From the NCBI GenBank assembly GCA_964016885.1, contig OZ024740.1:275962001-276026000 (forward strand): a stretch of DNA of 64,000 nucleotides, given 5' to 3'. Positions 36,810 to 40,685 of the stretch are shown in pieces; the stretch's first letter is position 1, and each line of letters starts with the position of its first letter. The stretch is from Eledone cirrhosa (taxonomy: Eukaryota). The notes under the pieces are model-generated. The model was given only the letters and a program-made list of their open reading frames with translations. It searched no databases and was not told the origin of the DNA. The translations under genes were made by a program, and so were the position numbers.

Positions 36810-37390
36810 ATACAATAACAGAGATAGTTTAAAGCTAAACTCTGACTGGTAACCATCTCACTCAACAAACATTAGGTTATATTTAAATATAAACCCAATT
36901 TAAGTGTTTGGGGTGCTAACAATATGTATAATGTGGAAAAACCAGTTGTATTATTTTATGAGATATAATTAAAGTTAAAGTACATCTCTTTCCAAACAAT
37001 TGTTTCATTATAAGTTTTCTACAAGTTGGGAGAATGTTTCCAGTTTATGTAGAAGCCTAATATATATTCATGTAAGAATATATTTAGGTGGGCACTTATA
37101 AATCATCAGTGGAAGCCCGTTAAACTTTGATATAAGAAAATAATTTCTTACCGCTGTCAAAAATCGTGTACGTAAAGTTACTCTCTCTCGCCTCGAATGA
37201 CCGCCAAATTTGAAATTCCAGCAGTTTTGGGTTGAGGGAGTATCATAGCGACACGAAGCGGGAAGGGGAGACAACCCACGATCCACAAAATGAGGAAAAA
37301 AAAATAATATACACGCGGGTTAATTAGTTTTTTTGAAAACATTATCAATCCAACGTGTTTAAGAACTCAATTGAAAATAAAATAAAATAT
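36810..37390 (-). mobile_element. Family F element with large hammerhead (36990-37114); diverged paralogue 40378-40930 (HHR 40562-40685)
   Basis: Shared blocks CCATCTCACTCAACAAACATTAGG, GTGTTTGGGGTGCTAAC, AAGAACTCAATTG. Confidence 0.75.
36990..37114 (-). ncRNA. Hammerhead ribozyme motif with ~90-nt branched stem II
   Basis: TTCCA-CTGATGA-T-TTATAAGT...ACTTATAA-T-GAAA-CAATTG-TT-TGGAA. Confidence 0.75.
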
Positions 37391-37499
37391 ATATAGATAT
37401 ATATAAAATAAGTAAGTCAAAAATGTAAAATTTGGCTTCGTTTATTATAAATTCTCTGCTATATATATTTCTGTGACAGCTATTATTGGCTGTTACCTC

Positions 37500-37945
37500 T
37501 TCAGGCAGTCCGAATTAATGTGGAAAAGACAGGTAAACATGTTGTTGAAATGTGTTCCACTCTGTCAATACATTGATATGTCCAGCTCCTGGCTGTGTTG
37601 TTAGTCTTCCGAGAAACTGGAATCCTCGGAAGCCGAGAATCATTCGGTTTCCTAAATAGAATATTAGTCTAATTACTCCTTTTATACCATAAACGTGATT
37701 TTGTTTTTGCGTGTATTTGTTCTCTTTGCTCCACATAACGACGTATTATCTTCGCTTTATCCCATTCATTGCCAGGGAACGTCTTCACAAACCAAAGTAT
37801 CGTATTCCTGTTTTCCTTCGGCCGCGACATTTTTCGAAATATTTATTTCTGCGTTCACAGATTGATTGTTTTAGTTTCAGAAGATCCCGTTAAGGGTGAA
37901 AGCAGCGATTCTTTGCTTAAATTTAATCTGTTATTTTAATAAATA
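37500..37945 (+). mobile_element. Family E longer copy (variant HHR 37873-37923)
   Basis: Homologous to the reverse complement of 43085-43530. Confidence 0.7.
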
Positions 37946-39159
37946 AATAAATAAATAAATAAATAAATAAATAAATAAATAAATAAATAAATAAAAAAAA
38001 AAAAAAATATATATATATATATATATATATATATATATATATAGTGAGTGAGCGATGAGACAGAAAAGGCATGAAAGGCATTACATGAGAGGAAGAATAG
38101 AACGTAGGAAAAAAGCGAAAGCCGGGAGTGAGTTGACAAGAAATTGTGAAAAATCTTTTCTCAGTGAAATTTGATACATATTTATTAAACGTAAGTATAT
38201 TACTCCGTACACCTCTCCCCACACACACATAGATTTTCCGTAAAAAAAAAGTTACTTATACTTTCTTTATATGGCCATATTCGAAATGATTATCTTCAAT
38301 CATTTATTTCATGTTGACATCCATCATAGCCACAGCTAACGTCTAATTTGCTGTATATTATCAGTAAATAAATACCTCAGATAGACGAATTAAGTTGGTA
38401 CTTGTGGATCTCGTGGTTCTGTCTACCACAGAAATCATTGATATATATTTTAATTGCTCTAACTCGATATATAAGTAGTTCTCTACTTTGGTAACACAAA
38501 ATTATTTTCAATTGTGTAATAAATGTGCTCATTTCGTTCTACTTTTGCGTTTCACTCTCTTCATATTAAGCTAATCAAAGTTGACTGTTATCTATATTCA
38601 GACTTTTGAGAAGCCACGGTCCTTCCATACCTTCTGAAGAAGTTAATAATAGCCACAAAAACACCTAGACATCTCAAAAGGTAAATATACATTTTTTTTT
38701 TGGGGGGGGGTAGACGATGTAGTCCCTGGTAATGTTATGTAAGTGACGCGAGGTTGGGGTGAGTGAGATATAGCGAGCTGGGGGTAAGTAAGAAGAAGGA
38801 AGAAGAAATCGTGTTTGAAATATTTTTGTTATACCAATCAAGTTGGCAGTTGCGATAGTGCCGGACAAAATCAAGTACCACTGATCTCTGCTCTGATGTT
38901 TATATTTTGAAGTCGATAAAGTATATTACAAGTCCAGAGTAATAGATATACAGAATAGTGAGAGAATTGGACAAGATGACTTATTGCATTTGTACTAGGT
39001 CTTTATTTTCTAAGTTCAAATCACCCCTGTGACCTATGTAAATGGAAGCCATAATATGTCACCTAGTTTACCAACATCACTTGACAATCTGGGTGCTTTT
39101 AGTAGATTTGCAAGCATTTATATATATATATATATCATTATCATCATCATCATCATCTT

Positions 39160-39538
39160 CATTTTACGTCCGCTTTTCCCTGCTTCCATTGATGGGACGG
39201 GTCCTATTCAGTACAGCATCTCTCCACTTGTCACGTCCTTCGCCATCTCCACCGTGAGCTTCAGCTATCTGAGGTCTGCTCTCACCACCTCCGCCCATGT
39301 TTTTCGTGGTCTTCCTCTGCTACGTCTTCCTTCAACTGGCATTTCTTGGCATTTCTTCACCCATCGGTCATCCTCCATGCGCATCACATGTCCATACCAT
39401 CGCAGTCTCCTCTCCCGCACACTACAACTTTTCCCTCTCAGACACAGTTTCTCTCTCAACGCATCCATACTCGGTCGTTCACGCACGTTGACATTGCACA
39501 TTCAACGGAGCATGCTTGCCTCATTTCTCTCCAGCCGT
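39160..39538 (-). mobile_element. RTE-like LINE 3' fragment
   Basis: RERRLRWYGHVMRM...VEGRRSRGRPRKTWAEVVRADL; (GAT)n tail. Confidence 0.85.
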
Positions 39539-39623
39539 CACACACACACACACACACACACACACACATATATATATATATATATATATATATATATATA
39601 TATATATATATATATATATATAT

Positions 39624-39830
39624 ATAGGAACGAGTAGGACCCCGACGGCTGAGCTCAAGCCGTTTCGACGGCTAATTCTGGACTAAATTTTAGTCCAGAA
39701 TTAGCCGTCGAAACGGCTTGAGCTCAGCCGTCGGGGTCCTCCTCGTTCCTATTACCCACTCTACTACCCTAAGTATTGAGTACTTTGGTGCGTTATGGTC
39801 CACCTAGTTCCTTACCACATTTCCTTCGTT
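39624..39830. mobile_element. Fold-back family A copy
   Basis: Palindrome 39624-39752 plus tail; within (TA)n. Confidence 0.8.
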
Positions 39831-39852
39831 ATATATATATATATATATATAT

Positions 39853-40196
39853 ATATCACAAAAAGAAAGAGAATCAGTGTTGCAACGAATGGAATTTATT
39901 GGACATATTACAATCGTTTCTCTGGCGACCATCTCAAGGCACGATCGATGTGATGATCGAACTGACTCTGAAAATCGCAAGGTCCTCAGATACGTCTTCT
40001 TTCTACGAAGCAGATTTTCCAGATTTTTGGAAAATCTGCTTCGTAGAATCAAGACGTATCTGAGGACCTTGTGATTTTCAGAGTCAGTTCGATCATCACA
40101 TCGATCGTGCCTTGAGATGGTCGCCAGAGAAACGATTGTAATATGTCCAATAAATTCCATTCGTCGCAACACTGATTCTCTTTCTTTTTATGATAT
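39853..40196. mobile_element. Fold-back family B: ~340-bp palindrome with a complete hammerhead in each arm (39902-39996 minus; 40053-40147 plus)
   Basis: GACGTAT-CTGAGGA...GAAA-CGATTG-TA-ATATGTC followed by AATAAA. Confidence 0.8.
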
Positions 40197-40561
40197 CATA
40201 CTCTGCTCTGTGAGAGCATCGAATGCTCAAACGGCCTACCTTATACGGACGCTTTAAGCATCCAACACCAATTATATATATATATATATATATATAGCAC
40301 ACCTGAAACAATTATAAAGCCATAAGATGGTTTAGAATCTTCGATTCCACATTTATATATATATATATATATATATACAATCAATACATAGACAGAGAAA
40401 GCCTTAAGCGATACTCCGGCCAACTCCATCTCACTCAACAAACATTAGGATATACCTAAGTATTATCCCAATTTAGTGTTTGGGGTGCTAACTAATCAGT
40501 ATTTCGTGGATAGTTGGTTGTATTATTTTATGAGACATTATTAAATAAATATCTCTTTCCT

Positions 40562-40685
40562 TCCAGACGGCCGTTTCGTCATAAGATTTCTACAATTTGG
40601 GATAAATAATTTCCAGGTTATGTAGAAACTTGTATATAATCCATAGTTTTATACACAAGCGGGCTCATATAAACTCATCAGTGGA
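40562..40685 (-). ncRNA. Hammerhead ribozyme motif with branched stem II
   Basis: TCCA-CTGATGA-GTT...TGAC-GAAA-CGGCCG-TC-TGGA; GUC site. Confidence 0.75.

What the first reader, a model, noticed from the sequence alone, without database searches (positions are those of the whole stretch)
36990..40685. Covarying pair of large hammerheads with branched stem II
Seen: two diverged paralogues (36990-37114 and 40562-40685) keep the core and stem I (TCCA/TGGA). Stem III changes from ACAATTGT to ACGGCCGT (four substitutions, still palindromic), and the stem II base changes from U-U to G-C. Both keep an internal TTCTACA/TGTAGAA helix in a ~90-nt insert. This is direct covariation evidence for selection on RNA structure. 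Inference: the stem II domain may be an RT-recognition or regulatory module.
Basis: partly seen in the sequence, partly recalled or inferred. Interest (0 to 1): 0.75.

Follow-up and report, generated by a model that had tools for sequence, protein, structure and literature searches.

The report
Branched hammerhead of a Penelope parasite
These two motifs are copies of a non-coding jumping element present thousands of times in this animal genome; its predicted self-cutting RNA carries a branched arm of about 95 bases whose pairing is kept by matched mutations, and it likely cuts only when two copies pair, with the arm likely helping to keep a lone copy switched off.

Summary
Both hammerheads are real, on the minus strand, but they are not a special pair. 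Each is a 5'-truncated, decaying copy of a non-coding, tandem-forming (700-1010 nt unit), TA-targeting repeat with at least 4,840 3' ends. It is most likely a non-autonomous Penelope-like element (retrozyme type); its partner was not found. The two-copy comparison proves little: U-U to G-C is not covariation and the cited helix is identical. Across 15 subfamilies covariation holds: 6 double changes among 28 in the branched stem II, against 0 among 121 post-insertion mutations. Stem III stays palindromic even at a central pair that only two copies can form. 5' ends pile up just 3' of the predicted cut (18 of 39), and 86 of 90 3' ends lie about 185 nt away, at a second covarying domain, so stem II is unlikely to be the priming signal. 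An invariant GGGC/GCCC helix is predicted to misfold a lone copy. Long stem II hammerheads are common here (13,605 hits, control 45), also on Hydra-clade elements. No paper found describes them; this scan noted similar ones on other DNA of this genome.

The parts
36800..37402 (-). Copy A: 5'-truncated copy of subfamily F13 (tandem unit about 1,005 nt), 3' end in a (TA)n run
   Evidence: 40 best genome hits 96-100% identical
36990..37114 (-). Type I hammerhead A: stem I, core, 96-nt stem II domain, palindromic stem III; predicted cut between 36995 and 36994
37007..37102 (-). Branched stem II domain A: basal helix P2, junction GCCC (37093-37090), hairpins P2a and P2b
37115..37118 (-). GGGC just 5' of stem I, complementary to the junction GCCC; predicted off-state helix or pseudoknot
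   Evidence: pair probability 0.86; conserved but no covariation
36807..36952 (-). 3' domain of copy A: covarying multi-helix structure with the TGTTGAGTG motif, ending at the insertion end
40377..40943 (-). Copy B: 5'-truncated copy of subfamily F20, 3' end in a (TA)n run
   Evidence: 40 best genome hits 96-100% identical
40562..40685 (-). Type I hammerhead B with 97-nt stem II domain; predicted cut between 40566 and 40565
40578..40674 (-). Branched stem II domain B (GCCC at 40664-40661); two private changes weaken P2
40687..40690 (-). GGGC 5' of stem I in copy B
   Evidence: pair probability with GCCC 0.89
40692..40726 (-). Hairpin directly upstream of hammerhead B (z -6.5); the counterpart in copy A (37133-37150) is weak (z -1.9)
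40385..40525 (-). 3' domain of copy B

Best explanation
The two motifs are 5'-truncated copies of a non-coding, tandem-forming repeat that is likely a non-autonomous Penelope-like retroelement (retrozyme type), whose hammerhead likely cuts multimeric transcripts as a two-copy dimer, while the branched stem II, a fold kept by compensatory changes, likely helps to hold a lone copy inactive. Shown: thousands of copies, 697-1009-nt head-to-tail units without an ORF, fixed 3' ends at TA runs, variable 5' ends, covariation across subfamilies, palindromic stem III. Inferred: a Penelope-type RT/GIY-YIG protein supplied in trans primes about 185 nt 3' of the cut, at the structured 3' domain, and copies the RNA until it runs off at or stalls near the cut (hence the pile-up of 5' ends). 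Predicted only: the junction GCCC pairs with the upstream GGGC in a monomer and sequesters the core until a second copy or the protein refolds it. Confidence is about 0.85 for the identity, 0.85 for selected structure, 0.65 for cutting in vivo, 0.35 for the off-switch role.
For: Copy number: 2,257 and 1,189 (control 8) ribozyme hits; 4,840 3'-domain hits, control 0. 13 of 15 same-strand core spacings are 697-1009 nt with at most 86 stop-free codons (the other two are interrupted). 86 of 90 copies chosen by ribozyme pattern end at the family 3' end. Covariation: stem II domain 6 double, 15 G-U, 7 breaking changes between subfamilies, against 0, 56, 65 private (P 2.7e-5 for doubles, 0.0066 for pair-keeping); same-edge changes 8 against 3.4 expected, P 0.002; 10 of 36 pairs change on both sides in 16 real copies, slid controls 1-2. 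None of the 7 breaks is A-C, which points to RNA of this strand. All 15 subfamilies fold the insert into the same two-hairpin junction, z -3.3 to -6.5, length 94-97 nt. No stem III folds as a hairpin; self-duplexes are -6.4 to -14.7 kcal/mol. 5' ends: 18 of 39 lie within -5..+14 of the cut in a sample chosen by the 3' domain only (P 3.6e-9); TA-like tetramers are as dense in three other bins that hold 2, 2 and 4 ends against 15; genome-wide for subfamily B 31 loci against 7 and 14 at control offsets. GGGC/GCCC pair probability 0.86-0.89 in the window copies.
Against: No autonomous partner found: a whole-unit profile hit nothing outside family copies in the window and 60 loci with other Penelope-like elements, and coding elements upstream of 4 copies inspected are separate insertions. 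Cleavage was not observed. Few 5' ends are exact (3 of 31; 3 of 18 within 2 nt); most lie at +7..+14, in AT-rich sequence where ends are blurred. GGGC/GCCC shows no compensatory change. P2b and P2 each have only one double change; two P2a pairs break repeatedly, and the inner P2a pairs were left out because their register shifts. Subfamilies are related, the tests use tip-to-tip edges of a spanning tree, and R-scape was not available. U-U at 10.1-11.1 in 8 of 15 subfamilies departs from the usual G-C (PMC4209133).
Confidence: 0.65

Rival explanations
1. Passive scaffold: the long stem II only has to fold on itself so as not to disturb the core; its shape carries no specific function.
For: Unrelated families in this genome have long stem II domains of different sequence and shape, from one irregular hairpin to three branches. 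Covariation alone shows folding, not function.
Against: Length is held at 94-97 nt in 15 of 15 subfamilies; 18 of 46 unpaired insert columns are invariant, including GCCC and UAA; internal deletions were seen only in single copies (listing).
Confidence: 0.3
2. The insert is a docking site for the Penelope protein, which activates the ribozyme or loads the RNA.
For: A Penelope-type hammerhead cleaved only with the element's protein (PMC11167929, passages). Invariant unpaired bases. Long stem II motifs also sit in the repeats of coding Hydra-clade elements.
Against: Priming is far away: 0 of 90 3' ends within 25 nt of the cut. The 3' domain is more conserved (85 of 141 columns invariant) and covaries, and a GTTGAG motif recurs 3' of the ribozyme in unrelated families, whereas no shared stem II sequence was evident.
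Confidence: 0.2
3. The ribozyme is not cut in vivo; 5' ends pile up because reverse transcriptase stalls in front of the folded hammerhead, or GGGC/GCCC is a pseudoknot of the active fold rather than an off state.
For: Modal 5' end near +10, at the 5' edge of a small hairpin. No reads ended at the cut for the Anolis element (PMC11167929). About 40% of hammerheads use a stem I-II pseudoknot (PMC3088659, passages).
Against: Some copies begin exactly at the cut; core invariant but for position 7 and stem III palindromy kept through several changes. A 4-bp stem I beside an 8-bp stem II seems a poor fit for a bridge with 1-nt linkers (inference).
Confidence: 0.2
4. The apparent covariation comes from template-switch repair of DNA or cDNA inverted repeats, not from selection on RNA.
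For: Quasi-palindromes can be corrected this way (recalled). Stem III changes are symmetric by construction.
Against: G-U intermediates stand in sister subfamilies (15 G-U events, no A-C, in the insert), doubles are isolated single pairs, and stem I and P2 partners lie 90-130 nt apart; 0 doubles among 121 private changes.
Confidence: 0.05

Closest known systems
Metazoan non-LTR retrozymes / non-autonomous PLE derivatives (PMC7229834; bioRxiv 10.64898/2026.07.22.740005)
   Same: Non-coding tandem repeats, low GC, one type I hammerhead per unit, weak palindromic stem III; U-U at the base of helix II is known from axolotl HHR_Amex2; family lengths of 51-972 bp are reported.
   Different: Unit 697-1009 nt; 94-97-nt branched stem II; mostly 5'-truncated monomers in (TA)n; circular RNA not tested; no homologous autonomous pLTR found.
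Minimal and palindromic-helix-III hammerheads of Penelope-like elements (PMC4209133)
   Same: Type I topology, 4-5-bp helix I, 7-8-bp helix II, palindromic helix III suited to dimers, high variability between families.
   Different: Helix II opens into a three-way junction instead of a small loop; G10.1-C11.1 in only 4 of 15 subfamilies.
Hydra-clade PLEs (PMC8557442, File S2)
   Same: (TA)n targeting, partial tandems, hammerhead near the 3' end. Coding elements in this genome with RWK, DKT, CxCX5C, CxxC and CxH motifs carry 90-nt stem II hammerheads (L276).
   Different: Published Hydra stem II domains are about 25 nt or less (longest in the table about 53 nt, in a plant element). This family has no ORF and no detectable homology to the Hydra elements sampled; that its partner is a Hydra element is a guess.

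Membership tests
Type I hammerhead ribozyme | Core CUGANGA, GAAA, UH with three helices, helix I open | tested here: met
   core kept in 15 of 15 subfamilies
Type I hammerhead ribozyme | Helices supported by compensatory change | tested here: met
Type I hammerhead ribozyme | Self-cleavage | not testable with these tools
   only indirect: 5' ends of copies cluster just 3' of the site
Type I hammerhead ribozyme | Loop 1 / loop 2 tertiary contact or pseudoknot | tested here: inconclusive
   GGGC/GCCC complementary and conserved, no covariation
PLE dimer-type hammerhead | Short palindromic helix III unstable as monomer | tested here: met
   11 of 15 exact palindromes, 4 near-palindromes; no hairpin, self-duplex stable
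Non-autonomous Penelope-like element | Partial tandem copies, fixed 3' end, variable 5' truncation, microsatellite target | tested here: met
Non-autonomous Penelope-like element | No coding capacity | tested here: met
   at most 86 stop-free codons in 13 uninterrupted units
Non-autonomous Penelope-like element | Homology to the pLTR of an autonomous element | tested here: inconclusive
   none in the loci sampled; the genome could not be searched exhaustively
Non-LTR retrozyme | Tandem monomers each with a type I hammerhead | tested here: met
Non-LTR retrozyme | Expressed as circular RNA | not testable with these tools
   needs RNA data
Hydra-clade PLE | ORF with RWK, DKT, CxCX5C linker, no CCHH | tested here: not met
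   the family has no ORF; met only by unrelated neighbours such as L276

The most novel reading that the evidence does not exclude
A natural hammerhead subtype in which stem II is a full regulatory domain: an invariant junction GCCC locks a lone copy in an off fold with the upstream GGGC, so that cutting happens only in multimers or on the Penelope protein. It would be one of many giant-stem-II hammerheads (over 13,000 hits here) that short-loop descriptors miss, showing that Penelope ribozymes carry add-on RNA domains.
Probability: 0.3. Interest if true: 0.75.

Novelty: new variant of a known kind. Interest (0 to 1): 0.5.

Why it matters
What hammerheads do in Penelope-like elements is an open question (PMC8557442, PMC11167929). 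This family offers 15 natural variants with a mapped priming end, a mapped 5'-end hotspot and a candidate on/off helix, so the question becomes testable with short transcripts. It also suggests that ribozyme surveys with short loop limits undercount these motifs in some animal genomes. The element class itself is known.

Tried and rejected
Rfam scan of the window: no match. Autonomous partner: two same-strand copies 4.6 kb apart (L109) are a local duplication; the GIY-YIG ORF beside L090 and those upstream of L294, L313, L322, L331 belong to a separate abundant family with its own small hammerhead; the Neptune-like window element has no protein match in 90 family loci. Sequencing runs: no RNA holder listed (4 contig sets from one study, none laid). 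Changes were counted between existing subfamilies, so their direction and order are not established. An earlier end map from loci chosen for full ribozymes (12 ends in the 0..19 bin) was replaced by the sample chosen on the 3' domain. Stem II lengths of 61-62 are a pattern artefact. The GTGAG in the 3' motif as a splice donor was rejected because other families lack it. Two key papers (PMC5785218, PMC5850863) are not held and were not read. A sequence look-up in earlier findings gave nothing.

Full report
Observation. A scan of both strands finds the two motifs on the minus strand at 36990-37114 and 40562-40685 with stem II domains of 96 and 97 nt. The inserts fold into a basal helix (P2) opening to two hairpins (P2a, P2b), z -5.8 and -2.8. 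Rfam has no match in the window.

What they are. The genome is 3.0 Gb in 1,796 contigs, rich in TA repeats; I guess an octopus-like host, which no call confirms. Each motif lies in a 570-600-nt piece whose 40 best hits are 96-100% identical. Exact patterns give 2,257 ribozymes (control 0), 1,189 of a further clade (control 8) and 4,840 3' domains (control 0); these are lower bounds. Of 15 same-strand spacings between cores, 13 are head-to-tail units of 697-1009 nt with at most 86 stop-free codons. Of 90 copies chosen by ribozyme pattern alone, 86 end at the family 3' end, 178-188 nt after the predicted cut, 82 of these followed by ATAT/TATA (a TA run or the tandem junction), and none ends within 25 nt of the cut. 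5' ends vary and partial upstream copies are frequent. This is the anatomy described for Penelope-like elements (PMC8557442) without the ORF, the class recently argued to include animal retrozymes (bioRxiv 10.64898/2026.07.22.740005). No autonomous partner was found.

Covariation. 206 distinct full copies were clustered; 182 fall in 15 subfamilies of 4 or more copies and 24 in smaller clusters were dropped. Subfamilies differ by 2.4-29%, A and B by 24%. Helices P2, P2a (outer 9 pairs; the inner pairs shift register and were left out) and P2b follow the single-sequence fold of copy A. Along 14 tip-to-tip edges their 23 pairs show 6 double, 15 G-U and 7 breaking changes, none to A-C; private mutations in the 182 copies show 0, 56 and 65 (P 2.7e-5 and 0.0066). 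Both partners change on the same edge 8 times against 3.4 expected (P 0.002). Stem I and stem III add 3 doubles (3 against 0.35, P 0.001). On 16 real copies 10 of 36 pairs change on both sides (shuffled 6.1, 1 of 500; slid controls 1-2), though that shuffle ignores relatedness. P2 and P2b have one double each and two P2a pairs break often, so support is strongest for P2a and for the domain as a whole. Private mutation rates are alike at paired and unpaired sites (0.016, 0.020), so genomic copies decay; selection acted on the source elements.

Dimer cutting. Stem III is ACAATTGT (5), ACGATCGT (5), ACGGCCGT (1) or a longer near-palindrome (4); none folds as a hairpin and all self-duplex at -6.4 to -14.7 kcal/mol. 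The central change AT to GC involves adjacent bases, which can pair only between two copies. This matches the dimer model (PMC4209133, PMC6765202).

Marks of cutting. Among 97 3' domains from the first 100 hits, 58 reach past the ribozyme and 39 are truncated nearer; 18 of these begin within -5..+14 of the cut (P 3.6e-9), while three other bins with as many TA-like tetramers hold 2, 2 and 4 ends against 15. For subfamily B genome-wide, 31 distinct loci begin after TA in this window against 7 and 14 at control offsets (counted by hand; P 9e-5). Only 3 of the 31 start exactly at the cut and the mode is near +10, so stalling before the folded ribozyme is a live rival.

Role of the insert. Priming occurs about 185 nt 3' of the cut, at a domain with 85 of 141 invariant columns and 34 pair-keeping against 5 breaking changes (that structure was derived from the same alignment, so the count leans towards it). 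A TGTTGAGT-type motif there recurs 47-115 nt before TA runs in unrelated families and GTTGAG occurs twice 3' of the ribozyme in a Hydra-clade element. That domain is the better candidate for RT recognition. In the insert, GCCC in the junction is invariant and GGGC before stem I nearly so; in both window copies they pair with probability 0.86-0.89, burying the core and leaving stem I at 0.09 or less. I take this as a likely off state for a lone copy, with no covariation to back it; a pseudoknot (PMC3088659), a protein dock (PMC11167929) and a passive scaffold are rivals.

Wider class. A pattern excluding this family finds 13,605 hammerheads with 75-105-nt inserts (control 45). In the 30 loci fetched, 28 of 30 distinct motifs have a palindromic stem III though only 4 of 16 allowed variants are palindromic, and 7 loci have a Penelope-type ORF upstream on the same strand. 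L276 has RWK, DKT, CxCX5C, CxxC and CxH, the Hydra signature, with a 90-nt stem II hammerhead at both ends. Published Hydra stem II domains are about 25 nt or less.

Literature. Seen: PMC8557442 passages, section 11, and part 2 of 59 of its supplement; PMC4209133 parts 1-2 of 4; passages of PMC11167929, PMC6765202, PMC3088659, PMC7229834, PMC13725137; abstract and Results part 1 of 2 of the bioRxiv preprint (its supplements are closed and may list such motifs). Seven searches listed no paper whose title, abstract or read passages describe a natural retroelement hammerhead with a branched stem II of this size. PMC5785218 and PMC5850863 could not be read, and Repbase was not available. Earlier notes of this scan describe long-stem II hammerheads on other DNA of this genome.

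Verdict. A real, selected RNA fold in a known kind of element; a new variant of the Penelope hammerhead. Interest 0.5.

Noticed in passing
window 53947-51800 (-): Degraded Neptune-like Penelope element (weak RT match, CX4CXXC-like linker, GIY-YIG-like region) with a small hammerhead near 51830.
   Followed up: partly
window 622-1818 (-): Three hammerheads about 558 nt apart in a tandem non-coding unit; 51-nt stem II with a C-A mismatch at its base and a 10-nt palindromic stem III.
   Followed up: no
window 12148-12218, 12687-12751, 35605-35669, 61623-61688, 45366-45408: Further hammerhead families with 14-36-nt stem II domains.
   Followed up: no
G000 genome-wide; L141-L170, L271-L278: 13,605 hammerheads with 75-105-nt stem II in many unrelated families, several on Hydra-clade coding elements, often as head-to-head pairs.
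   Followed up: partly
L276:2471-5900: Near-complete Hydra-clade element flanked by two long-stem hammerheads; GTTGAG occurs twice between the upstream ribozyme and the ORF.
   Followed up: partly
L090, L092, L111-L140: Very abundant Penelope-like family (46,139 first-look candidates) with a small hammerhead; often nested in the same TA runs as this family.
   Followed up: partly
window 39627-39750 and 39855-40190: Palindromic head-to-head inserts between the two copies.
   Followed up: no
window 17754-19127 (-), 21451-23514 (+): LINE-type reverse transcriptase and endonuclease fragments (Pfam).
   Followed up: no
L020, L084, L091: Subfamily A units are about 250 nt longer than the others through an internal duplication about 80% identical.
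   Followed up: no
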